The notes under the pieces: generated by a model
Database searches by the model: none
Told to the model about the DNA's origin: nothing
The model's input: the letters and a program-made list of their open reading frames with translations, nothing else
Program-made: the position numbers and the translations under genes
NCBI GenBank assembly: GCA_041674705.1
Contig: JBAYVF010000006.1
Span: 23,241 to 87,240 of the forward strand
Origin: Candidatus Omnitrophota bacterium
Lineage (GTDB): Bacteria > Omnitrophota > Omnitrophia > Omnitrophales > Aquincolibacteriaceae
Length of the DNA stretch: 64,000 bases
Reading direction: 5' to 3'
In this document: one piece after another, positions 15,847 through 28,887 of the stretch
How positions within the stretch are numbered: the first letter of the stretch is position 1
Layout: each line of letters begins with the position of its first letter

Positions 15847-16110
15847 ATGGAACAACGTTGGTCTCTTTATATTCTTGAGTGTCGCACGAAAGATTTGTAT
15901 GTGGGCATTGCTCAGGATGTGCAGAAAAGACTGGAGTTGCACAATAAGGGGCGTGCATGCCGGTACACTAAATTTCGAGGACCTGTGACGTTAGTTCATG
16001 AAGAATACTGCGGTGGTTACGCTGAAGCACGAAGACGGGAAAGAGAAGTCAAAAAGTTTTCTAGGATCAAGAAGTTAGCTTTAAGAGACCTCTCGTCACC
16101 AAAGACGTGA
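15847..16110 (+). CDS. GIY-YIG nuclease family protein (UPF0213-like, 87 aa)
   Basis: WSLYILECRTKDLYVGIAQDVQKRLELHNKG...YTKFRGPVTLVHEE.....A.RRERE.K pattern. Confidence 0.8.
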   Translation: MEQRWSLYILECRTKDLYVGIAQDVQKRLELHNKGRACRYTKFRGPVTLVHEEYCGGYAEARRREREVKKFSRIKKLALRDLSSPKT

Positions 16111-16144
16111 CTCGAGGTCCCAAAAATTATAAAACAAATTTTTG

Positions 16145-16230
16145 GGAGGGATGGCAGAGTGGTCGAATGCGGCGGTCTCGCCACCGCCTGCGAAGCGGCG
16201 GGGTCCCGCCTCTTTTTAGGCGGGAAAAAC
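16145..16230 (+). pseudogene. tRNA-Ser-like 5' fragment followed by a hairpin (non-functional tRNA remnant)
   Basis: The first ~36 nt (GGAGGGATGGCAGAGTGGTCGAATGCGGCGGTCTCG) are near-identical to the tRNA-Ser(CGA) 115 nt downstream. There is no 7-nt anticodon loop, T-arm or 3' acceptor. It ends in cccgcc-tcttttta-ggcggg. Confidence 0.5.
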
Positions 16231-16259
16231 TAGCATTTTTTGATCGGCCGTTCGTTTAG

Positions 16260-16346
16260 GGAGAGGTGGCAGAGTGGTCGAATGCGGCAGTCTCGAAAAC
16301 TGTTAATCGCGCAAGCGGTTCGGGAGTTCGAATCTCCCCCTCTCCG
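16260..16346 (+). tRNA. tRNA-Ser(CGA)
   Basis: Hand-folded cloverleaf: acceptor GGAGAGG/CCTCTCC, anticodon arm GCAGT-CTCGAAA-ACTGT, long variable arm, T-arm GGGAG-TTCGAAT-CTCCC. No encoded CCA. Confidence 0.9.
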
Positions 16347-16383
16347 TTTTGCTATGATTTTTAAATAAAAAAAGGAATAGAAA

Positions 16384-18078
16384 TTGGAATATCTGATCTT
16401 CGCCAGGAAATTCAGGCCGCAGACGTTTGAAGAGATCGTGGGGCAGGAGACCATCACCACGACCTTGAAGAACGCCATCCGCCAGGAACGCGTTCCGCAA
16501 AGCTTTCTTTTTTCCGGGCCTCGAGGTGTGGGAAAAACCTCAACCGCGCGTATTCTCGCCAAGGCTCTGAATTGTAAAGAAGGTCCTACCGAAAAACCCT
16601 GTGGCAAATGTATTTCCTGTAAAGAGATCGAGCAGGGGAATTCCATGGATGTGCTCGAAGTGGACGGTGCGTCGAACCGCGGCATTGAAGAGATCCGAAC
16701 ACTTCGCGAGAATGTAAAATTCAAACCTTCTTCGGGCCGCTACAAGATCTACATCATTGACGAAGTCCATTCCTTGACCGGCGATGCTTTTAATGCCCTC
16801 TTAAAGACCCTCGAAGAGCCGCCGGCGCATGTGAAATTTATTTTCGCCACGACGGAAGCCCACAAGGTGCCTCTCACGATCCTGTCGCGCTGTCAGCGGC
16901 TTCAATTCAAAAGGATCTCGGTCCCTGAAGCGGTTGAAAAACTTGAGAAGATCGCGCAGAAAGAAAAACTGAAGTGCGAGAAGAACGTGCTTTTCATGAT
17001 CGCGAAGGCTACGGAAGGCGCGCTTCGCGACGCGGAAAGTCTTTTAGACCAACTGGCGAGTTTTTCCGAAGGGAAGATCAAAGAAGAAGACGTCTTAACG
17101 CTTCTCGGTCTTGCGCCGGAAGCGATGTATGTTTCGGTTCTTGTGGCGATCCGCGAGAAAAAAGGGGATGAGATCTTTGGTCTCGTGAAAAAGCTTTATG
17201 AGGAAGGCGCCGACCTCGCGCAATTCGCGAAGGGGCTCTTCGAAGTTTTCCGTCATCTCTTGGTCTTGAAGACCGCGGTCAAAGCGGAGGCGTTGATCGA
17301 AGCGAGCTCCGACATGATCGTGAAGTTGAAGAAGCTGACGACCGATTTCCCGCAGGGCGAGTTGCTTTTGGCTCTTTCAATCCTTCAAAACTTGCAGATC
17401 CAGCTGCGCCGTCCGGTGGCCTCGCCCAAACTGCTCCTGGAGGCCGCGCTCCTCAAGCTTGTTTATATGGATGGCATGAAATCCGTCGACAGTCTTATCC
17501 AGAACGCTTCTTTAGCGTCGAGGGGGAGTTCCGCAGCTCCGGCCATGGAAAAAAAAACACTAAAACCGGTCACGGCCGCTAGCAGAGTTGAAATTCCTCA
17601 AAAGGGGACAGGCACCGTTTCTTCGGGGACTGGCTCCTTTTCCGCAGGAAAAGGTGCCTGCCCCCCTCAAAAAGAAACGGAGCCTGTCCCCCCAGAAGGC
17701 CTGACGCTCAATGATGTCGAAAAGGTATGGCCTCAAGTGATCGAGCTTGTAAAAGCCAAGCGCATGTCCTTGAGTCTTTATCTTGCCGAAGCCGAGCCGG
17801 CAGAAGTAGAAGGTTCGGTGATCGTCCTGGGGCTTCCCTCCGAATTCCGTTTTCATAAAGAGACGCTCGAAAAAGATCTGAACAAGCAGGTTATCGAAGA
17901 CGCGTTCGCGCAAGCCTTGGCTGTCAAGGTCCGGGTCCAATGTGTTGTGACCGAACGCGACGGGACGACTCAGGAAGCGGCCGAGGAAAGAGCCTCGGCT
18001 CAAGACGAAGGCGTGCCTGATATTGTTTCAAAGGCCCTTGAAATTTTCGACGGTTCCAAAGTTATCCGCAAAGATTGA
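16384..18078 (+). CDS. dnaX: DNA polymerase III subunit gamma/tau
   Basis: TTG start. FRPQTFEEIVGQ, P-loop GPRGVGKTSTARILAK, Zn module CGKCISC, DEVH. 564 aa. Confidence 0.9.
   Translation: MEYLIFARKFRPQTFEEIVGQETITTTLKNAIRQERVPQSFLFSGPRGVGKTSTARILAKALNCKEGPTEKPCGKCISCKEIEQGNSMDVLEVDGASNRGIEEIRTLRENVKFKPSSGRYKIYIIDEVHSLTGDAFNALLKTLEEPPAHVKFIFATTEAHKVPLTILSRCQRLQFKRISVPEAVEKLEKIAQKEKLKCEKNVLFMIAKATEGALRDAESLLDQLASFSEGKIKEEDVLTLLGLAPEAMYVSVLVAIREKKGDEIFGLVKKLYEEGADLAQFAKGLFEVFRHLLVLKTAVKAEALIEASSDMIVKLKKLTTDFPQGELLLALSILQNLQIQLRRPVASPKLLLEAALLKLVYMDGMKSVDSLIQNASLASRGSSAAPAMEKKTLKPVTAASRVEIPQKGTGTVSSGTGSFSAGKGACPPQKETEPVPPEGLTLNDVEKVWPQVIELVKAKRMSLSLYLAEAEPAEVEGSVIVLGLPSEFRFHKETLEKDLNKQVIEDAFAQALAVKVRVQCVVTERDGTTQEAAEERASAQDEGVPDIVSKALEIFDGSKVIRKD
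17549..17557 (+). promoter_or_regulatory. A9 slippery run in dnaX (candidate recoding / transcriptional slippage site)
   Basis: GAA AAA AAA ACA at codons 389-392. The -1 frame stops at 17580-17582 and the +1 frame stops at 17561-17563. Confidence 0.45.
17604..17691. repeat. 88-nt imperfect palindrome inside dnaX coding sequence (in frame)
   Basis: ggggacaggcaccgtttctt..ggactggctccttttcc / ggaaaaggtgcctgcccc..aagaaacggagcctgtcccc. Encodes GTGTVSSGTGSFSAGKGACPPQKETEPVP in the tau linker. Confidence 0.75.
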
Positions 18079-18096
18079 TCCATCGGGAGCCCAGCC

Positions 18097-18696
18097 ATGA
18101 AAGCCTATTCGGAAATAATGACGAGATTGGTTGAGGCGCTCTCCAAACTCCCAGGTATCGGCCGGCGTTCGGCCGAGCGCATGGTTTTCCACCTCCTGAA
18201 AACAAAAAAAGAAGATGCGCTCACGCTCGGAGAGCTCATCAAGCAGCTTCGCGAGAGCGTGGTGTTTTGCAGCGTTTGCCATAATTTCTCGGATCAAAAA
18301 CTTTGCCATGTTTGTTCGGACCCGGGCCGCGATCAGGGGCTTATTTGCGTCGTCGAAGATCCCAAGGACGTTGTGGCGATCGAAAAGACCGGAAGCCATC
18401 GCGGGGTCTATCACGTACTGCTGGGGGCGCTATCGCCGCTGGACGGGATCGGGCCGGATCAGATCTGCATTCAGGATCTTCTGGAACGCGTGAAGCAGAA
18501 AAAAGTCCGGGAAGTCATTCTCGCGACCAACCCCAACACCGAAGGCGATACGACCGCGCTTTATCTCGCGAAAGTTTTGACACCTTCCAAAGTCAAAGTG
18601 ACGCGCCTGGCGCGCGGCATCCCGGTCGGCAGTTATATTGAATACACGGACCAGGCCACGCTCGCCCGCGCTTTTTCAGGCAGACATCTCGCATGA
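18097..18696 (+). CDS. recR: recombination protein RecR
   Basis: LPGIGRRSAERM helix-hairpin-helix, Zn finger CSVCHNFSDQKLCHVC, Toprim VVEDPKD...ATNPNTEGD. Confidence 0.95.
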   Translation: MKAYSEIMTRLVEALSKLPGIGRRSAERMVFHLLKTKKEDALTLGELIKQLRESVVFCSVCHNFSDQKLCHVCSDPGRDQGLICVVEDPKDVVAIEKTGSHRGVYHVLLGALSPLDGIGPDQICIQDLLERVKQKKVREVILATNPNTEGDTTALYLAKVLTPSKVKVTRLARGIPVGSYIEYTDQATLARAFSGRHLA

Positions 18697-19891: not shown

Positions 19892-20791
19892 ATGCGAATG
19901 ATTCAAAAAATTTTATTCCTCGTCGAATACGCCATCTTCAGGGCCCTGGCATTTCTTCTCCGTCTCATTCCTCTTCGAATAAGTTACAAAACGGCTGATG
20001 TCTTGGGGGTGTTCGTTGTCCGGATCCTGGGGATTCGGCGTGAGACCATGCTGAAAAATCTTCGCCTGGCATTCGGGAAGGAAAAGGATGAAGCCGAACT
20101 TCTCCGGATCGCCGAGGAGTCGATGGCGAACCTCGGCAAACTCGTTTTCGAATTCATCCGAACACCGGAAGCTTCCGCCTACCCCGAGCGGTATATGGAA
20201 CCGCCAGACGTATCGCCGCTGATGGAAGCTGTGAAGAAAAAAGGCGGTTTTATCGCGATTGTTTCGCATTTCGGAAATTGGGAGTGGTTGGCAATTCCCA
20301 TCCAAAAAGACGGCCTTCATGTGCATGCCGTGGGCCGTCCCCTCAAAAATCCTTATCTTTACCGTTATGTCCGGGAAATTCGCGAAGCGGCGAACCTGAC
20401 CAATATCGAAAAGTCAGGCGCGGTGCGGTCCTCTCTCGAGGTGCTTAAAGAGCGGGGGATTCTGGCGGTGCTGATCGATCAACATGAAAGCCGGGGATCG
20501 ATGTGGGTGAATTTTTTTGGCCGCAAAGCCGCGACGAGCACTTTGCCGGCAATGCTTGCCCTTAAATATGAATATCCGGTGCTTCCCGCGTTCTTTTATC
20601 GCGATGAGAGCGGTTGCTCGAAAATTAAATACGGACCACTTTTCCCCCTGATCCGGACCGGAGATCTTCAAGCTGATTTATTGGCTAATACCCAGCAGTA
20701 TGTAACTAAGATCGAGGAAGAGATCCGAAAACGGCCCGGCGACTGGCTTTGGGCCCATCGGAGATGGCGCGCCCCGGAAGTAAAGGTTTAA
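19892..20791 (+). CDS. lysophospholipid/lipid A biosynthesis acyltransferase (LpxL/HtrB family)
   Basis: N-terminal TM, SHFGNWEW acyltransferase motif, LIDQH block. ATG 19892 is preferred because the track start 19748 lies in a hairpin array. Confidence 0.7.
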   Translation: MRMIQKILFLVEYAIFRALAFLLRLIPLRISYKTADVLGVFVVRILGIRRETMLKNLRLAFGKEKDEAELLRIAEESMANLGKLVFEFIRTPEASAYPERYMEPPDVSPLMEAVKKKGGFIAIVSHFGNWEWLAIPIQKDGLHVHAVGRPLKNPYLYRYVREIREAANLTNIEKSGAVRSSLEVLKERGILAVLIDQHESRGSMWVNFFGRKAATSTLPAMLALKYEYPVLPAFFYRDESGCSKIKYGPLFPLIRTGDLQADLLANTQQYVTKIEEEIRKRPGDWLWAHRRWRAPEVKV

Positions 20792-23700
20792 GCAGCGGAG
20801 GAGATGACGACGTAATTCTGGACCAAGGCTTCGACGAAAGCACGAACCTCGGAACGAAAACGTCCGGTCTGGTCATAAAGAAAGCCGTTCTTCATTTGCA
20901 GGTCTTCAGGCCGATTGACAAGTAGCGCCAGAACGATGCCATCCATGCCGTCTAGGGCAAAACATTCTTGAAGATGTGGAACAATCCTCGGCTCCGCCCT
21001 GCCTAATCTTGCTTTGAATGCTCCTACCGTATCTCGTTCCATATCCGAGAAACCAAAGACCGGGATCTTTCCAGACCTCGCCATTTCAGGCAACCGGATA
21101 TCAACGGTAGCAACCGACCGTAACGCCACCACGCGATTACTATATTGTCCGTGAACAACATCCGGGATCACTAGTCGGATCTCCGAACGTCTTGTCCCCG
21201 CCAAGCAAAGAAGTTTTTTAAAATCCGTCGCCGTCATTAAATCTATCGTCGTCTGCTCAATTACAAGCACCGCCTTGTTCATGATAGGCGCTATCGGTTG
21301 AACTCTCGCCTCAGAACGAACCGGTGCGTCTTTGGCCATCGCCGCGTCTCCACTCGCTACCGCCTGATCAGTCATAGTTTCCGAATAAATACCATAAACC
21401 ATCTCGAGTTGAGCCAAACCAGTCTGAAGCCCCTTCTTATATGCCATGAGCGTTAGCAACGCATCCGCTCGATCAATAGGATTCGCTCTAAGACGATTTT
21501 CAAGACCGCCAACATCCTGTGCTTGAAGCCACCGAATATCATCGATGCCTTTTTTAATCTCAACCAACACTTCCTTTATTAATGAGACAACGTCCGTACG
21601 CGACATTTTCTTCCAATCCTGTCTATATTGATTGTCAAAAGGAATCTTTTTTGAAAAAATATCACGCTGAATGCCTTGATTCCGCTTATTAATCATTTCA
21701 AGTCGATTGTTAATTTCGGCTATTTCAGCCACCTCTTCTTCCTGTAAATAGACCTCCGCTGAACTCCATAATCCGAGGGCCTGACGAAGCGTATAATTTA
21801 ATTTGTCGCCGAATAAAAGAGTTAGCGCCTCGGCCATCTGATATAAATGTTCATCGGACAGCTCCCCACGTTTAAGCGTTAAGGCAGCTTTACGCAACAG
21901 AGAACCCGCCATCAAAAATCTCTCCGCTCCTTGCCCTCGATAAAAGGCGGATTCCCGCTCAAGGAACTCATCAATCGTCAGCTTCCCTTCGCGGAAAGAC
22001 TGTTCGCTCTGATCAGGTTCTTTGCCTGTTGTCACATGGAATCGTAAAAGAGTCCCTTCTGTCGTCAATGCAGCAAGGCGCGTCTGCGTCTCCGCCTCGG
22101 AGATACCCAGGAGACTGGCCACTTCTTCTACCTTGAATCCACCGACGATGCTATTGATGGGATAATGGGAAAGACTCGCCACCGCAGCATCTTCGCTCCG
22201 CATCTCGGAGCGGACCGTTATGTCTTTAGCCATCGCGCGGTCGGCCTCGGCCGCCTTCATCTCCCTGCCGTCCGCCGTGAAAATCTCTTTCTCTTCGCCT
22301 GTATCGGGGATACGGGGAAATTCAACGGGGGCGGTCATCAAATCAGGCCCATGCCCCAGCCAGGACAAACTCATTTTACCGTCAGACAATATCTTGACGC
22401 TTCGGATCTTCGTTGGCTCTTTCTTGTCCGTGTAAGGATTAACGAATAATATTTTCACGCCTGACGGAAGTTTGATGAGCGTGCGCTGCACGCCAAAGAT
22501 ATCTTCGTTCTCGGCCAATACTTCTCCTTTGGCGCTCAATCCATCGAGGAGCTGCATCCATTCTTGCCGTGAAAAGGCATGGCTTTTCGTGAACTCAGAC
22601 ACGCTGTCGATCGTCTCATAACTGGCCGTGGGGTACATCGGGGTAAGTTTTATCACATCAATTTTATTGCTGAAACTTTCAGCAAACCTTTCGAGATCTG
22701 AAACATTGTCGATCCCGCTCTTGAACGCGATCAAATTAACTCTCAAAGTCTTGCCCCTGGACATTAGAAAACGATTGATCTCCTCTATTTCCCCTATCGT
22801 GAGCGTCGATGTTTCCATAATGGCGTCATTTCGTTTCTTGTCATAATGATGATAGGAGATATTAACCGATGTGATCGAGGAATTCCCGACAAGCTCCAGA
22901 ATATTTTTATCTCTCAAGGGCGTTCCGTTCGTCGTAACAGTGACCTCGTCTAATTGATCCTTGACCTTATCCAATTCCCCCAACACTTCTCCTAAATGCC
23001 GTGCGAGCAAAGGTTCCCCCCCCAGCAACACGACATCTTTCACATGATAAGCGCTCATGGCTTTGCTAAGCTTTTGTGGAAAATTACGCGCCACAGCCTC
23101 ACCGCTATGTTGCGACCCTGTTTTATTAATACAAAAAGCGCAGTTACCGTTACAGAGGTCGGTCATGACAATACTCAGACTGGTTTCATCGGCTATCTGA
23201 TAGAGGCCCTCGCCGATACGAACAGGAGTCAAAGAATCATCCATTAAACGCATTTCTCGAATGTAAGGCACACTGCTTTTTGTTTGGTTGTGCCCAGGGG
23301 CCTCCGCCGCGTCGGGAGGCATCTGATCTGAAATGGGAGAAAGAGGGCTCTGTTCCCAATTTTCCTGACTTTCTATTCGAGGTAAATCTGTAAACTTATT
23401 ATCGGGTCTCGGGCCTTGCTCTATTAAATCCACACTATCTAACCCCAGGCCGTCCACCCGAGCAAATTCTTTAGAGCTATCAATACTCGAAAGCATTTCT
23501 GCACCTCTAGGATTTTTGTCATTTGGCTCCTTCTCAGCGGCAGGTTCTTGTTTCAACCGCATTTCGGAGCGCTTGTCTAGAGCGGTTCGATTTGGCTTAT
23601 TCCGTTGCGAGTCTCTAAGGCTACGCGCCTTTCCCGGCCGAATGGCAACCCATAAATCGGAGGTTTCAATAAACCGGCGCCTCAAGAACTCAACATCACA

Positions 23701-26700
23701 ACCAAGCCCTAAAAACATGTGCGAAAGACGGGCTAATAGAGAAAAACCTTCCTGATTAGGGAAATGGCACCCTTTTTCTGAATAATAATAACTTAAATAA
23801 TGGTTCAAAATCAGCCACTGCGGCGTCACTTCCGCCATCAAGCAGATCCAATCTCGTAAAACCCTCCCTTCGGATACAAGTCTCTTCAAAACCGACAGAC
23901 CCTTCTCGGCACGCCGCCATGCCTTGACCGCAACAGAAGCGGGCAACCGATCACTGTGATCAAAAATTTCAGCCACCTCTTTCAGGGGAAGAATTTCGCC
24001 CAAAAACATGTCGTCCAAGGCATGATTGCCAACCACTAGATGCGGGTTACGCGGCAAAGATTCCATTCCTTCCCGTAAAGTCTTTTGGATGGAAACAACT
24101 TTCACTCCGGGGACAAGTCTTTGATAGGAATCCACAGCTTTTTTGATCACTTTCGCAGGTTCAAGAACATAAACGGTACCAAGAAAACCGTATTTTTTGA
24201 GCCCCCACGCAATTTGTGAACCCGAACCCGGCGCTACTTCGACAACAACCCCATCTTTAGGCAACTGAATTTTTTTAAAAATATCTTGCCAAATAAGGCC
24301 CATGAACTGGTCCCATGTCATTCGCGCTGGGTCAAATTGACTCAAATCAAAGGACATGCCAGGGGATCCCGCCTTGCCATTCGTATCCATGGATGAAACT
24401 TGTCGCATTTGTTGTAATCGCTCAAGGCCTTTTATAACCGAAGGGTCGTCTTTCATAAAAGGAGCAAAAACAGGCCGTGAAGGTCCAAGCGATTGTAGTC
24501 TGAATTTTCGGTTCTTGAATAACAATGTCGGAACCAAATTTTCAAGAAGCTTCTGGTTATCGAAAGCAGGGCTGATCACCCACATTTCATCATCGTGCCT
24601 TTCGATCGCACAGTCATATTTTTTCCCGTTCAGCCTTATGGACCAAGATCCTTGTTCTTTTGGCATTTCCTCTTGATCAAAAAAGGCGGTAAAAAACCGG
24701 AAACTGCCGTCCTTAGAAAGCAATTTTCCAGAATAGCCATTAACATAAAGTTCCATGTCGGCAAGATAATAATTATCAAAAATACGGGAAGGAACGCGCC
24801 TACTGGCTTGCACGATCTTATCGATCAACAGCGAAAATCGTTCTGCCTTGATTTTCCTGCCTTGATACATTTCCACGAGATTCTGTTTGATCCGGCGTCC
24901 GAAGAGAGGCGACAAATAGGAACGATCCTCATTCACAATATAGGCCTTCATTTCCGCAGAATCCTCTAAAGGCGCGAAAACCGATCCTCGAATCTTTGCA
25001 AAAAGAGAATCATACGCAAAGATGAAGAACAGTGCCCTTCGACAACAATCTTCAAGCATCCCATCGTCTTGAACCACATACCCGTGCTCTTCGACATAGC
25101 GCTTCATGAAATCCGGAATCGCGTCATTTTCCTTCCGTTCAGTTTCCGCATCGGGATTCAGCAACAGAAAAAACGCTTTTTCAATACTCCATTGAGGACT
25201 TCTTCGGAGAAGCGGGTAATACCGGAAGAAATTAGAAAAATCAAAGACGGCAAGCTCATCATGATCGGGAGCATGAATATCCCATGCATTGTAACGCGGG
25301 AGCATCATGCGTGACAGGGCCTGAAATTCATCGGCTAATATTTTTAGTTCTCTTTCGAACTGCTGGCCTACGGCGTCTTTAAATGGCGTGGACAATCCCA
25401 TGAGATCAAGGAACCTTGTTCGGATCTGCGACGCATAAGCCTCCTCCATGGCGTGTTTTAGATCTTTTAAAGACACCTTGCCGCGATTAACTTCGCTTTG
25501 CGCTAAACCTTCCAAAATCATTAATTGACCGTTCTGCTCTAATCCAAATAAATTGGTTGTATAGAATGTTTTTCCAACGACTTGAGGCGGACGGTGACGG
25601 ACAGAAAGGACCGTGTCATAATCAAGCATACGGCCTTCCACCGAGATATTGCCTGCCGACCATGCTCCGTGAAAGATCCTTTCAATAAACTTTTCAGCCT
25701 CCCCTTTTCCAAACATGGTTGCCACACGAAGCATTCTTTTTTTGTTAAGTGGCTCGTTTTTTTTAAATAAATGCGTCGGACGATCCAAGCTTCCATCATC
25801 CATACGAACTAAGAGAGCCGCTGCTTCCCTGGATCCCGGCCACGAAGGATTATCAAAAGTCTTTACCGCATCAATGATCCCGAGTACCGGCGCCGTACCA
25901 GTACGGAGGTCGTAGTGCAAGGAATTGGAAACGATGGCTTCCCATACTGCGGTCGGAAGATCAAGAAAGCCGTCCGAATGCCATTTATCTGACTCGTGAC
26001 TCACGAGAGCTGTTTTAACCCCTTTCACATTGAAACGAGAACCTATATAAAAAGCACGTCCTGAACCCAAGTTACCATTCGTCGCGATACCGGTCGGATC
26101 GAATTGATAATCCACAAAAACAGGCAAATACTTTTCAAGCTTAAGCCCATCTGAACCTTGACCGCGTTTAAGCGTGGCCACGGAAAATTGACGTTCTATA
26201 GCGTCCAACATATTTTTTGAATCCGTCCACGGCGGAAGAAACCGGCCCAGCATGGCGCGGTTTCCATAGATGCCCGCCATGGACTCTACCGGATCTTTAT
26301 AAGCAGTTTGTCGGATGAATGACGAACGGCCCAGACGATCCAAGGCCTGAGGTTCCTTACGCATCTCCTGTTCGAGAGAAAGAATCGGCCTTAAGCAAAA
26401 AGCCATCCACGAGTCACTCTCAAAACCCTCAGTTTCAACAATCATTTCGGATTCCAGATCCCTTGTATTTTTAGGCACCGAAGCAGAAATTTGCTCAAAA
26501 AGGTCTTTGGCCCTTCTGAAATCATCAGAAGAAATCCGGTCATTGCGAAGCAGAGCATCACGACTTGCTATGACAAAAGCTGGTGACGCTTTTATAAAAA
26601 AGCTCTTCCAGTCCAGCCCGCGAGAACTATCCTCCGATGACATCCTTGTGAATGCATTGACAATCACCCCATCCACAGGGTTTAAAAAGCCACTCCCTTG

Positions 26701-28887
26701 ATTGAATGCGTCCAGAAGGACAGGAATAATCTTGGCTCCAGGCAAAAGGTGACGGTATCTTTCTAAATTTCGAAGGACCGCTTTATTTCCACCTGTCAGC
26801 ATTAATGTGCCTTTAAATTTCCTGGAGGCTAGCACTTCAGGCACGGATGACGGTTCGGAGGATACAAATTCGATCAAAGATCCTTTTTCCGGAAATTGAT
26901 AACGGTCTAAAAGAAGTTGCCAAATCCGCTGGGCAGCCACACGGCGGTCCTTTTCAGGGATCTTTTCGAGCCTTGAATTTAAAGGAACTTCTTGGTCGTC
27001 GCGCGATTCGCTTCGGCGAGACATTACATTTTTTTTAAGGGAAAGATCCTGGGCATGAACTGATCCCATTTCGTCAATACCAGCAGCTTGCCTTCCATTC
27101 GTTTCCTGCATCTCGAAGCGAGTGGTTCGCTCATGATTTAAATCTCGCATTTCAGCTCTTCCAATCACACGATGGAGCGTTCCAAGATCGGCGTTGCGGT
27201 CTGCATACAGAGCATTGGCTACGGCCAAAACCTCCATGCGGCCTTCAGAGCGAGCAAAAATGCGCTCGGCCGGGACCATGGTTGCAGGGGCCAAAGGTTT
27301 TGTGGCAATTGCCCGCTCGAACGGAAAGTCACCGTCTGTCATAAGCTTTTTATAGAACGCTTCGTGACGAGGGCTGGGCTTGGTGATTCGCGGACTGACG
27401 ACGAGGTAACTGATCCCTTTGACTTCGAGGACGCGTTTGATGTTCTCCTTATGGAATCCTCCATATACCAAAATTGCCGGCTCGATGCCGGGCAATTTCG
27501 AACTCGAAGTTCGAAGCTCGAAGTTCGAAGTTTCGGCATTATCTTTGTTCTTTGCGTTTTGCTCTTTTCCCTTTTCAAGAAAATATTTATCCAACATCTC
27601 CGAAAGTGAATTGTCACGCTGATGGGCGATTTCGTAGAATTTAATCGCATCCTTGATGTTTTGCTCCCACATCCGGGAGAGGATAAGCGTCTTTGGCGAC
27701 TGGCTGAAAATAAACTTAGCGAAGGAATCCGTATCAAATGTTTTAAGGCTGTTTTTGACCGCCTCATATTCTTCTTGGGATACTTGAAGGTCGTTCAGAC
27801 GGTCGAGAAGGCTTAGGATTTTGTAATACTCAAGAAGCTGCTTATCTTCCGCCTTATGCAAGTAAGTTTCCGCGACCGCTTGCTCAAGTTTAATAAGCTC
27901 GCCGAAGATTTCACGGGCATCAATGTGTTTGGCTTTTTCGATGACAGCCGGATCATTCGAGCGAATGGCTTCAAGAATAAAGCTGAAAAGACCGTCAGCG
28001 TGGAGCGCAGAGCGTTTAACGCTTAGCTTTTTGTCGTTTCTGTCCCCTCTACGCTCTACGCTATCCGCTAGTGAAAATGTCCTTCCAAGATAAGTAAAAA
28101 GGTCGAGCTTCTTGGCATCGAACTGTTCCTTGATCTTGAGCCATTCCTTGAGCGCTTTTGGAAACCGGGCATCGGCAAGTGACTTTAATTCCTTTTCGAG
28201 CGCCTTGAGATCTTTGGTGATGACGTCTTTCTTTGCCGCAGAGAGACGGTATTGTCCGATGTTTTCTTTGTGGAGCTTTAGGGAATCAGCGCCAACGAGG
28301 TTGAAATCCTTTGTCCGGTTAATGTGGGCGTATTCCGCACCGCCTACGCGAAGATGGTCCATCAGGAAGTAAGAGACCTTTTCTTTGATCGTGAGGTCTT
28401 TGATGAACCCGAAATAGTTGTCCGTAGGCACCGGGCCTTCATAGCCCTCCTCGAAGACTGTCTTAATGCCGTCATGCGCGACTAGGTGGTTGATGATCTT
28501 GGCGATATTTTCCTGAGCTTCGAGCGAGTCATGGGCGTCTTGCAGAAAGACTATGGTCTTTCTGCCGGATATCGGATGAAGGATGGAGGATGGCGCCAAA
28601 CCTTTGGTTTTCAGTTCTTCGCCATCCGCCATCCGCTGCCCGCCATCCGGGGCAAAATAGACCTCGTCTATTTTGCCAAGTTCGGGAGGGATCCGGATCT
28701 TTACATCACGGACCAGGCGAGAAAGATCCTTGGATGGATCCCCTCCCTGAACATTGGCATTGACTGGTTGGGCGAATGCAGGGGGCACATAGTTGAGAAG
28801 GCCTGTAAACAGAAAAAGCGCCGCTGTGATAATGGCGACGCCTCTTTTGAATGGGTTTCTCCCGAAGGGAGTATTTTGTATTCTCAT
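20788..28887 (-). CDS. giant multidomain protein (2,699 aa): signal/anchor, unknown N-terminal region, SelO-like, methyltransferase-like, radical SAM, unknown C-terminal modules
   Basis: Single uninterrupted ORF. The motifs are quoted in the domain sub-features and findings. The stop overlaps the lpxL-like stop region by 4 nt (convergent genes). Confidence 0.85.
   Translation of the reverse strand: [2699 protein letters not shown]
22500..23190 (-). other. radical SAM core region of giant ORF (approx. aa 1900-2130)
   Basis: [19 protein letters not shown] (CxxxCxxC at 23131-23154), [29 protein letters not shown]. Confidence 0.7.
23730..24390 (-). other. class-I SAM methyltransferase-like Rossmann region of giant ORF (approx. 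aa 1500-1720)
   Basis: [14 protein letters not shown] (motif I-like), GTVYVLEP (acidic end of beta2), [11 protein letters not shown] (motif IV-like). Confidence 0.45.
25000..26400 (-). other. SelO/YdiU-like pseudokinase (AMPylase-fold) region of giant ORF (approx. aa 830-1295)
   Basis: [22 protein letters not shown] aligns with E. coli YdiU [42 protein letters not shown] aligns with [42 protein letters not shown] aligns with [21 protein letters not shown]. Confidence 0.6.
27485..27539. repeat. palindromic word-repeat (CGAAGTT words) in frame inside giant ORF
   Basis: atgccgggcaatttcgaactcgaagttcgaagctcgaagttcgaagtttcggcat. Encodes ..[18 protein letters not shown].. Confidence 0.65.
27998..28062. 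repeat. palindromic word-repeat (CTACGC words) in frame inside giant ORF
   Basis: gcgtggagcgcagagcg - 27 nt - cctctacgctctacgct (14/17 complementary by hand). Encodes ..[21 protein letters not shown].. Confidence 0.55.
28565..28650. repeat. GGATGG-family palindromic element in frame inside giant ORF
   Basis: ccggatatcggatgaaggatggaggatggcg - cctttggtttt.. - cgccatccgccatccgctgcccgccatccgg. Encodes ..[29 protein letters not shown].. Confidence 0.7.
28771..28887 (-). other. signal-peptide-like / N-terminal anchor segment of giant ORF (aa 1-39)
   Basis: [16 protein letters not shown] (basic), [15 protein letters not shown] (hydrophobic), then [10 protein letters not shown] (AxA-type site). Confidence 0.6.

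What the first reader, a model, noticed from the sequence alone, without database searches (positions are those of the whole stretch)
17545..17582. dnaX carries an A9 run at the tau/gamma boundary with immediate stops in both alternative frames
SEEN: codons 388-392 read ATG GAA AAA AAA ACA, with nine consecutive A at 17549-17557. The -1 frame then reads K K N T K T G H G R and stops at 17580-17582. The +1 frame reads K K K H and stops at 17561-17563. The site lies after the ATPase and clamp-loader domains, at about residue 390 of 564.

ESTABLISHED: E. coli makes gamma by -1 ribosomal frameshifting at A AAA AAG. Thermus thermophilus makes gamma by transcriptional slippage on an A9 run, with stops close by in both shifted frames.

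INFERENCE: this gene probably also produces a truncated gamma-like product by slippage or frameshifting.
Basis: partly seen in the sequence, partly recalled or inferred. Interest (0 to 1): 0.6.

Follow-up and report, generated by a model that had tools for sequence, protein, structure and literature searches.

The report
Conserved A9 slippage site in dnaX
The DNA-replication gene dnaX of this uncultivated Omnitrophota bacterium carries a run of nine A's, kept unchanged across diverged relatives, that most likely makes RNA polymerase slip and so yields a shortened "gamma" clamp-loader protein, a trick already known from Thermus.

Summary
dnaX (16384-18078, 564 aa) has an A9 run at 17549-17557, just after clamp-loader domains I-III. 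The +1 frame stops at 17561-17563 and the -1 frame at 17580-17582.

The run alone could be chance, but comparison shows selection. Eleven lineages of one Omnitrophota clade (61-89% aa identity, synonymous sites saturated) all encode GAA AAA AAA A-N (A9, once A10) in the same phase. This sits inside an otherwise hypervariable linker. Of 75 clade proteins, 73 read EKK followed by T, S, I or N, all residues with A-first codons. Stops in both shifted frames lie closer than the genes' own background.

There is no E. coli-type SD element or hairpin. A ribosomal heptamer needs only seven A's, yet nine are conserved. This favours Thermus-type transcriptional slippage, giving about 43.5-44 kDa gamma (392-399 aa) alongside 62 kDa tau.

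In 137 distant dnaX genes, A>=9 runs are about 160-fold enriched just after domain III, in 24 genes.

Verdict: supported, unproven experimentally, and a new member of a known kind. A strong palindrome at 17604-17691 is lineage-specific and not part of the site.

The parts
16384..18078 (+). dnaX coding sequence (tau, 564 aa, 62.0 kDa; TTG start; stop included)
   Evidence: ORF list; Pfam DNA_pol3_delta2, lid, gamma3 and DnaX_C; PDB matches to E. coli gamma/tau at E=3e-80; homologs are named DNA polymerase III subunit gamma/tau in Candidatus Omnitrophota.
16384..17493 (+). Part encoding domains I-III (aa 1-370), the clamp-loader core kept in both tau and the predicted gamma
   Evidence: Pfam domain limits; collinear with E. 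coli DnaX 1-327, whose crystallised gamma core is residues 1-373.
17549..17557 (+). A9 homopolymer, the proposed slippage site (G AAA AAA AAA C; zero frame GAA AAA AAA ACA = E389 K390 K391 T392)
   Evidence: It is the only homopolymer of 9 or more in the 64 kb. It is invariant as A9, or A10 in L165, in 11 of 11 diverged relatives in the same phase. Only 5 of 44 invariant K/E columns have an invariant codon, and 3 of those 5 are this site.
17550..17556 (+). In-phase heptamer A_AAA_AAA inside the run (potential -1 ribosomal slip site; rival or minor route)
   Evidence: Read directly from the sequence and frame. It is flanked by further conserved A's at 17549 and 17557 that a heptamer does not need.
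17561..17563 (+). TAA stop in the +1 frame, read in transcripts with A8 (392 aa, 43.5 kDa) or A11 (393 aa, 43.7 kDa)
   Evidence: In relatives the +1-frame stop lies 1-22 codons after the site, mean 6.5 against a null of 22.5, P~0.0004.
17580..17582 (+). TAG stop in the -1 frame, read in transcripts with A10 (399 aa, 44.2 kDa, tail NTKTGHGR)
   Evidence: In relatives the -1-frame stop lies 1-16 codons after the site, mean 7.9 against a null of 24.8, P~0.003.
17701..17970 (+). Part encoding the DnaX_C domain (aa 440-529), present only in tau and lost in the slipped products
   Evidence: Pfam PF20964, E=1.5e-10.

Best explanation
dnaX of this Omnitrophota bacterium is a single gene with two products.

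1. When RNA polymerase transcribes the A9 tract (17549-17557), the all-A:T hybrid lets the nascent RNA realign. The mRNA population then carries A9 plus a share of A10, A11 and possibly A8.
2. Ordinary translation of A9 mRNA (or A12) gives full-length tau of 564 aa. A10 mRNA terminates at the TAG at 17580-17582, giving 399 aa. A8 or A11 mRNA terminates at the TAA at 17561-17563, giving 392 or 393 aa.
3. The short products keep ATPase/clamp-loader domains I-III and lack the linker and the C-terminal DnaX_C domain. They are therefore gamma-like subunits that cannot tether the polymerase.

Shown here: the sequence anatomy, the nucleotide-level conservation of the run, and the closeness of stops in both frames. 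Inferred: that slippage occurs, that it happens mainly during transcription rather than translation, and that the short product is used. I put about 0.8 on programmed gamma production at this run by either route, and about 0.65 on transcription being the main route.
For: (1) Eleven lineages at 61-89% aa identity all read GAA AAA AAA A-N in the same phase. The same-codon fraction at shared K/E residues is 0.42-0.72, against about 0.51 for random, so synonymous sites are saturated.

(2) Of 44 invariant K/E columns, only 5 have an invariant codon, and 3 of these are the site. The A-ending codon fraction elsewhere is 0.61, so 33 of 33 has probability about 7e-8 if lineages are independent.

(3) E, K and K are conserved 11/11 while the flanking linker columns score 2-5/11. 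Of 75 clade proteins, 73 read EKK+T/S/I/N. In the DNA the base after the second Lys codon is always A, while the next base varies (C, G, T or A), and Ser is AGT in both sampled cases. This shows the ninth A is constrained rather than the amino acid.

(4) Non-homologous stops lie close by in both shifted frames in all 11 lineages. The joint mean of the farther stop is 10.6 codons against a null of 35.8, with 0 of 20,000 resamples reaching it. A +1-frame stop is irrelevant to -1 frameshifting but is needed if transcripts gain or lose variable numbers of A.

(5) No SD-like or hairpin stimulator is conserved, and there is no Rfam frameshift-element match.

(6) Nine A's are conserved although the heptamer needs only seven. 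Nine is the length at which selection against slippage-prone runs becomes evident in many bacteria (PMC1088944). A/T runs in this window drop from 16 of length 8 to 1 of length 9.

(7) In 137 distant dnaX genes, A>=9 runs occur at 3.19 per 1000 codons in the 60 codons after domain III, against 0.02 in domains I-III. The length spectrum there peaks again at 9-10: A7=14, A8=9, A9=17, A10=9.

(8) There is a precedent: Thermus thermophilus dnaX has an A9 run with stops in both non-zero frames (PMC5009743 and PMC1088944).
Against: No transcript or protein data exist for this uncultivated organism. An in-phase A_AAA_AAA heptamer is present, so a ribosomal contribution cannot be excluded. Two of 13 sampled clade members have the run broken by one A->G change (L162 GAA AAA GAA, L163 GAA AGA AAA), so the run is dispensable in some lineages, or those assemblies carry variants. 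Sister Omnitrophota at 58% identity or less lack the site. The lineages are related, so the P-values overstate independence. The slippage threshold of this organism's RNA polymerase is unknown.
Confidence: 0.65

Rival explanations
1. Programmed -1 ribosomal frameshifting. Two tRNA-Lys slip back on the in-phase heptamer A_AAA_AAA (17550-17556) and translation ends at the TAG at 17580-17582, as in E. coli dnaX but without stimulators.
For: The heptamer is in phase in all 11 relatives. The -1-frame stop is close by in all of them. E. coli dnaX uses a related A_AAA_AAG site (PMC5009743).
Against: In E. coli A_AAA_AAA is much less shift-prone than A_AAA_AAG (PMC5009743 section 31). No upstream SD-like element or downstream hairpin at the right spacing is conserved; the 60-nt flanks have z-scores around 0. 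No Rfam frameshift element matches. This model does not explain the conservation of the two extra A's at 17549 and 17557, the close +1-frame stops, or the A9-A10 peak in the cross-phylum length spectrum.
Confidence: 0.15
2. No recoding function. EKK is a conserved protein motif in the linker, for instance a binding or protease-recognition site, and the A-rich codons reflect codon preference. Only tau is made, or gamma arises by proteolysis as in Caulobacter.
For: AAA and GAA are the preferred codons at 58% and 62%. Two relatives tolerate K->E or K->R changes. Proteolytic generation of gamma exists in Caulobacter.
Against: Codon identity is invariant at three adjacent codons although only 2 of 41 other invariant K/E columns are codon-invariant. 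The residue after KK varies among T, S, I and N but always starts with A. Stops are enriched in both shifted frames. Long A-runs are otherwise depleted.
Confidence: 0.08
3. DNA-level phase variation. Replication slippage in the A9 tract switches cells between tau-producing and gamma-only alleles.
For: Homopolymer tracts are hypermutable (PMC1088944 discussion).
Against: dnaX (tau) is essential (abstract), so an out-of-frame allele would be lethal. All 11 run-bearing assemblies are in frame. No gamma-only ORF of about 400 aa appears among the 120 best homologs; the short entries there are cut by contig ends.
Confidence: 0.02

Closest known systems
Thermus thermophilus dnaX transcriptional slippage site (Larsen et al. 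2000; summarised in PMC5009743 and PMC1088944)
   Same: It has a run of nine A's in the sense strand of a single-ORF dnaX, with tau in the zero frame and stops close by in both non-zero frames. The truncated product lacks the C-terminal polymerase-binding part, and no frameshift stimulators are required.
   Different: [quoted passage not shown] The phylum is different (Omnitrophota), and the origin is probably independent because sister lineages lack the site. Slippage is not demonstrated experimentally here.
E. coli dnaX -1 programmed ribosomal frameshift (A_AAA_AAG with an SD-like element and a stem-loop)
   Same: It is the same gene, with the same relative position just after domain III and about two-thirds through the ORF. 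The outcome is the same: gamma lacks the C-terminal domains. An in-phase all-A/Lys heptamer is present.
   Different: The heptamer ends in A rather than G. No conserved upstream SD-like element or downstream stem-loop is present, and no Rfam element matches. The -1 stop is 8 codons away rather than 1. Nine A's are conserved rather than seven.
Two-ORF ('reverse') dnaX genes with A10 runs (Antonov et al. 2013, PMC3711429)
   Same: They have a poly-A tract at the tau/gamma boundary, and transcriptional slippage is the proposed mechanism.
   Different: In those genes the zero frame ends after the run and tau needs the slip. Here tau is the zero-frame product and gamma needs the slip. One example of the reverse type turned up in the survey (L067).
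Caulobacter crescentus DnaX processing by ClpXP
   Same: It has the same end result, a gamma-like form lacking the C-terminus.
   Different: That route is post-translational. It predicts no nucleotide-level constraint, whereas constraint is what is observed here.

Membership tests
Thermus-type dnaX transcriptional slippage | Uninterrupted run of 9 or more A in the sense strand inside a single dnaX ORF, with tau in the zero frame | tested here: met
   A9 at 17549-17557 inside the ORF 16384-18078.
Thermus-type dnaX transcriptional slippage | Site lies downstream of clamp-loader domains I-III and upstream of the tau-specific C-terminal domain | tested here: met
   Domain III ends at aa 370, the site is at aa 389-392, and DnaX_C spans aa 440-529. 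The protein is collinear with E. coli DnaX.
Thermus-type dnaX transcriptional slippage | Stop codons close by in both non-zero frames | tested here: met
   The +1 stop comes after 1 codon and the -1 stop after 8 codons in the window. In 11 relatives the distances are 1-22 and 1-16 codons, shorter than the gene background.
Thermus-type dnaX transcriptional slippage | Run maintained by selection at the nucleotide level in relatives | tested here: met
   11 of 11 lineages have A9 or A10 with saturated synonymous sites, and 3 of the only 5 codon-invariant K/E columns are at the site. Exceptions: 2 relatives with single A->G changes.
Thermus-type dnaX transcriptional slippage | mRNA population heterogeneous in the number of A's | not testable with these tools
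   No transcript reads are available. This needs RNA-seq or RT-PCR deep sequencing.
Thermus-type dnaX transcriptional slippage | Two protein products (tau and gamma) detected | not testable with these tools
   The organism is uncultivated and no proteomic data are accessible.
E. coli-type dnaX -1 PRF | In-phase slippery heptamer A_AAA_AAG | tested here: not met
   The heptamer is A_AAA_AAA, and the base after it is A in all 11 relatives.
E. coli-type dnaX -1 PRF | Shine-Dalgarno-like stimulator about 10 nt upstream | tested here: not met
   The upstream 40 nt are unconserved in the 11 relatives. The window has GGGGGAG 21 nt upstream, but no counterpart recurs.
E. coli-type dnaX -1 PRF | Stable stem-loop a few nt downstream | tested here: not met
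   The 60 nt downstream have z-scores of -1.0 to +1.3 with no common structure. No Rfam match was found. The strong hairpin at 17604-17691 starts 47 nt away and is absent from the relatives.
Two-ORF (reverse) dnaX, Antonov 2013 | Zero-frame stop directly after the poly-A tract, so tau requires a frame change | tested here: not met
   The zero frame stays open to codon 564.

The most novel reading that the evidence does not exclude
Long A-runs (A9-A10) placed just after domain III have arisen repeatedly and independently in many bacterial phyla. They are present in 24 of 137 sampled distant dnaX genes, while the nearest sister lineages of this clade lack them. On this reading Thermus-type transcriptional slippage, not E. 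coli-type ribosomal frameshifting, is the commonest recoding route to gamma. The secondary peak of run lengths at 9-10 would then be a genome-encoded readout of the RNA-polymerase slippage threshold. A second positional class, 26-41 codons before the tau stop, would remove only the conserved C-terminal peptide.
Probability: 0.5. Interest if true: 0.5.

Novelty: new member of a known kind. Interest (0 to 1): 0.35.

Why it matters
The finding extends a recoding mechanism proven only in Thermus to an uncultivated phylum, with unusually clean comparative evidence: a nine-base island of nucleotide invariance inside a hypervariable linker. It also shows that truncating slippage sites can be recognised by comparative analysis. 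Baranov et al. 2005 set those cases aside as hard to assess. For annotation, dnaX in this clade should carry a second gamma product. For biology, it adds to the case that bacteria repeatedly re-invent ways to make gamma, whose role is still debated. It is not a new kind of mechanism.

Tried and rejected
1. E. coli-type stimulators. I folded 60 nt upstream and downstream of the run in 11 relatives and inspected the upstream 40 nt. Nothing is conserved.

2. Rfam scan of 16000-18500 at E<=10. It gave only tRNA-Ser and chance-level hits, and no dnaX frameshift element.

3. T-run as a minus-strand terminator. One weak 5-bp-stem match lies at 17577-17564, within the shuffle expectation (2 found against 0.8 +/- 1.0). 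There is no credible minus-strand gene, and the sequence is not conserved.

4. Strong nested palindrome at 17604-17691 (-60.7 kcal/mol, z -6.8) as a possible stimulator. I rejected it as part of the system. It starts 47 nt after the run, is absent from the other ten run-bearing relatives (z -0.2 to -2.4; only a degenerate remnant in L161), and has no other copy in the window.

Only L081 and L084 were close. The distant loci were reused for the survey.

6. The P0063 look-up returned no DNA.

7. Part 3 had a one-base offset that mislabelled the frames. It was discarded and redone.

8. No tRNA-Lys gene lies in the window, so the Lys-tRNA repertoire could not be assessed.

Full report
**1. The observation**

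The ORF at 16384..18078 on the + strand encodes a 564-aa protein. Pfam assigns the full DnaX architecture: DNA_pol3_delta2/AAA at aa 21-178, ATPase lid at 184-230, gamma/tau domain III at 232-370, and DnaX_C at 440-529. The protein aligns collinearly with E. coli gamma/tau structures over residues 1-329 at E=3e-80. Its closest database homologs are labelled DNA polymerase III subunit gamma/tau of Candidatus Omnitrophota. The gene is followed by recR (18097-18696) and preceded by tRNA-Ser (16260-16346), and relatives share the dnaX-recR order.

Codons 388-392 read ATG GAA AAA AAA ACA, and the nine A's occupy 17549-17557. Simulated transcripts give these products:
- A10: 399 aa, 44.2 kDa, ending EKKNTKTGHGR, stop TAG at 17580-17582.
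- A8: 392 aa, 43.5 kDa, ending EKKH, stop TAA at 17561-17563.
- A11: 393 aa, ending EKKKH.
- A12: tau with one extra Lys.

**2. Is it more than chance?**

Within the window alone the answer is no. A/T homopolymer counts fall about 2.5- to 3-fold per added base (118, 44 and 16 for lengths 6, 7 and 8). About six 9-mers would be expected and one is seen, P(<=1)=0.02. So a single A9 is not improbable, and 9-mers are if anything avoided. The only one present lies at the tau/gamma boundary of dnaX. The decisive evidence had to come from relatives.

**3. Comparative evidence**

A protein search returned a graded series of Omnitrophota DnaX proteins. In the alignment, the tetrapeptide E-K-K-T stands out in a linker that is otherwise hypervariable in sequence and length. 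Of the 75 clade proteins that cover the site (61-89% identity), 62 read EKKT, 8 EKKS, 2 EKKI and 1 EKKN. Two have single substitutions, EKET and ERKT. T, S, I and N are all residues with codons that can begin with A. The 44 next-closest proteins (54-58% identity) lack the motif, and only 3 have any A9-compatible peptide in the linker.

I obtained DNA for 13 distinct clade members and two outgroups. All 11 members with EKK[TSIN] read GAA AAA AAA A-N, that is G-A9 (A10 in L165, where the next codon is AAT). All are in the same phase, with tau in the zero frame. The base after the ninth A is C, G, T or A, and both sampled Ser codons are AGT. The ninth A is therefore constrained, not the amino acid.

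Synonymous sites are saturated among these lineages. The fraction of identical codons at shared K/E residues is 0.42-0.72, against about 0.51 expected at random. Of 44 K/E columns invariant in all 11 sequences, only 5 have an invariant codon, and 3 of those 5 are the three codons of the site. Elsewhere the A-ending fraction is 0.61, so 33 of 33 has probability about 7e-8 under independence. E389, K390 and K391 are conserved 11/11, while neighbouring linker columns score 2-5/11.

**4. Off-frame stops**

In the 11 lineages the -1 frame runs 1-16 sense codons after the site (mean 7.9) and the +1 frame 1-22 (mean 6.5). The same genes' own background means are 24.8 and 22.5, giving resampling P of about 0.003 and 0.0004. 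For the farther of the two stops per gene, the mean is 10.6 against 35.8, reached by 0 of 20,000 resamples. The stops are not homologous: they sit at different positions and use different codons. Predicted short products are 392-418 aa in all lineages.

In the two relatives whose run is interrupted by one A->G (L162, L163), the +1-frame stop lies 37 and 52 codons away. With n=2 this is only a hint of relaxed constraint.

**5. Mechanism**

Both levels of slippage are formally possible, because the run contains the in-phase heptamer A_AAA_AAA. Five observations favour RNA polymerase.

(a) Nine A's are conserved, not seven. The A's at 17549 and 17557 lie outside the heptamer.

(b) Stops are kept close in both shifted frames. 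That is the Thermus arrangement, and it is needed when transcripts gain one or two A's.

(c) No SD-like element or properly spaced hairpin is conserved, and Rfam finds nothing.

(d) In E. coli A_AAA_AAA is far less shift-prone than A_AAA_AAG (PMC5009743).

(e) Nine nucleotides is the length at which selection against slippage-prone runs appears in many bacterial genomes (PMC1088944). This window shows the same drop at 9.

These are inferences. The slippage itself, its efficiency and the use of the short product are untested.

**6. Wider context**

I reused the 160 distant dnaX loci, of which 137 were usable, from many phyla. A>=9 runs occur 26 times in the 60 codons after domain III (3.19 per 1000 codons) and once in 50,805 codons of domains I-III (0.02 per 1000). 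Twenty-four of the 137 genes have such a run there, nearly always with stops within a few codons in both shifted frames.

The run-length spectrum in that segment is bimodal (A7=14, A8=9, A9=17, A10=9). In domains I-III it decays monotonically (30, 5, 1, 0). The feature is therefore recurrent across phyla.

The published record I could find covers Thermus (A9), E. coli and its relatives (PRF), 17 two-ORF genes with A7-A10 tracts, and Caulobacter proteolysis. Baranov et al. deliberately excluded truncating cases from their survey.

**7. Comparison and novelty**

The site meets every sequence-level criterion of the Thermus-type dnaX slippage site that can be tested. It fails the defining features of the E. 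coli-type PRF cassette and of the two-ORF type (see the membership table). It differs from Thermus in position: right after domain III and two-thirds through the gene, against about seven-eighths in Thermus. It also differs in phylum and probably in origin, because sister Omnitrophota lack it. It is a new member of a known kind. The interest is moderate to low for a recoding specialist, with some added value from the clean conservation signal and the cross-phylum survey.

**8. Things that are not part of it**

A nested palindrome at 17604-17691 folds at -60.7 kcal/mol, z -6.8. It consists of four copies of a ~20-nt unit, two direct and two inverted. It encodes part of the linker (KGTGTVSSGTGSFSAGKGACPPQKETEPVPP). 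It has no other copy in the window, survives only as a degenerate remnant in the closest relative L161, and is absent from the other run-bearing relatives. The outgroup L174 has an unrelated strong structure (-51 to -56 kcal/mol, z -6.8; three adjacent hairpins) at the equivalent linker position. These look like lineage-specific palindromic expansions tolerated by the variable linker. Their function, if any, is unknown.

Noticed in passing
window 17604-17691 (+), inside the dnaX linker-coding region: An 88-nt nested palindrome made of four ~20-nt units (two direct, two inverted) folds at -60.7 kcal/mol (z -6.8). It starts 22 nt after the -1-frame stop and stays in frame (KGTGTVSS...EPVPP). It is not found elsewhere in the window and is not conserved in relatives beyond a remnant in L161. 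It could slow ribosomes translating tau or affect mRNA stability; that is speculation.
   Followed up: partly
L174 about nt 1750-1880 (dnaX linker of outgroup P0077, CDS nt ~1150-1280): A relative that lacks the A-run has its own, unrelated cluster of three adjacent perfect hairpins (100-nt window -51.2 kcal/mol, z -6.8) at the equivalent linker position. This suggests palindromic sequences repeatedly arise or insert in the dnaX linker in Omnitrophota.
   Followed up: partly
L044, L053, L056, L075, L116, L131, L140, L104, L007 (distant dnaX loci): There is a second positional class of A9-A11 runs, 26-41 codons before the tau stop and immediately 5' of the conserved extreme C-terminal motif (e.g. 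...QKKKSQDNLLKKKALGHPLVADAVEIFSGTLIDVKIL). Stops lie close by in both shifted frames. Slippage there would remove only the conserved C-terminal peptide. The position recalls the Thermus site (~7/8 of the gene).
   Followed up: partly
L067 (Thermoguttaceae MAG), dnaX codon ~399: An A10 run is followed by a zero-frame stop at codon 405. This is a two-ORF 'reverse' dnaX of the kind described by Antonov et al. 2013, in which tau would need the slip.
   Followed up: no
L162 and L163 (clade members P0015, P0036), site codons: The run is interrupted by a single A->G (GAA AAA GAA ACG and GAA AGA AAA ACG). There is no replacement slippery site in the linker, and the +1-frame stops are 37 and 52 codons away. 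These may be lineages that lost programmed gamma production, or assembly or population variants.
   Followed up: partly
window, whole 64 kb: A/T homopolymer counts fall smoothly to length 8 (44 of length 7, 16 of length 8) and then collapse to a single 9-mer, the dnaX site (~6 expected, P=0.02). This is consistent with genome-wide avoidance of slippage-prone runs of 9 or more.
   Followed up: partly
window 20788-28887 (-): A giant 2699-aa ORF contains a CNGNCAFC (CX3CX2C, radical-SAM-like) motif in its C-terminal third. Nothing further was examined.
   Followed up: no
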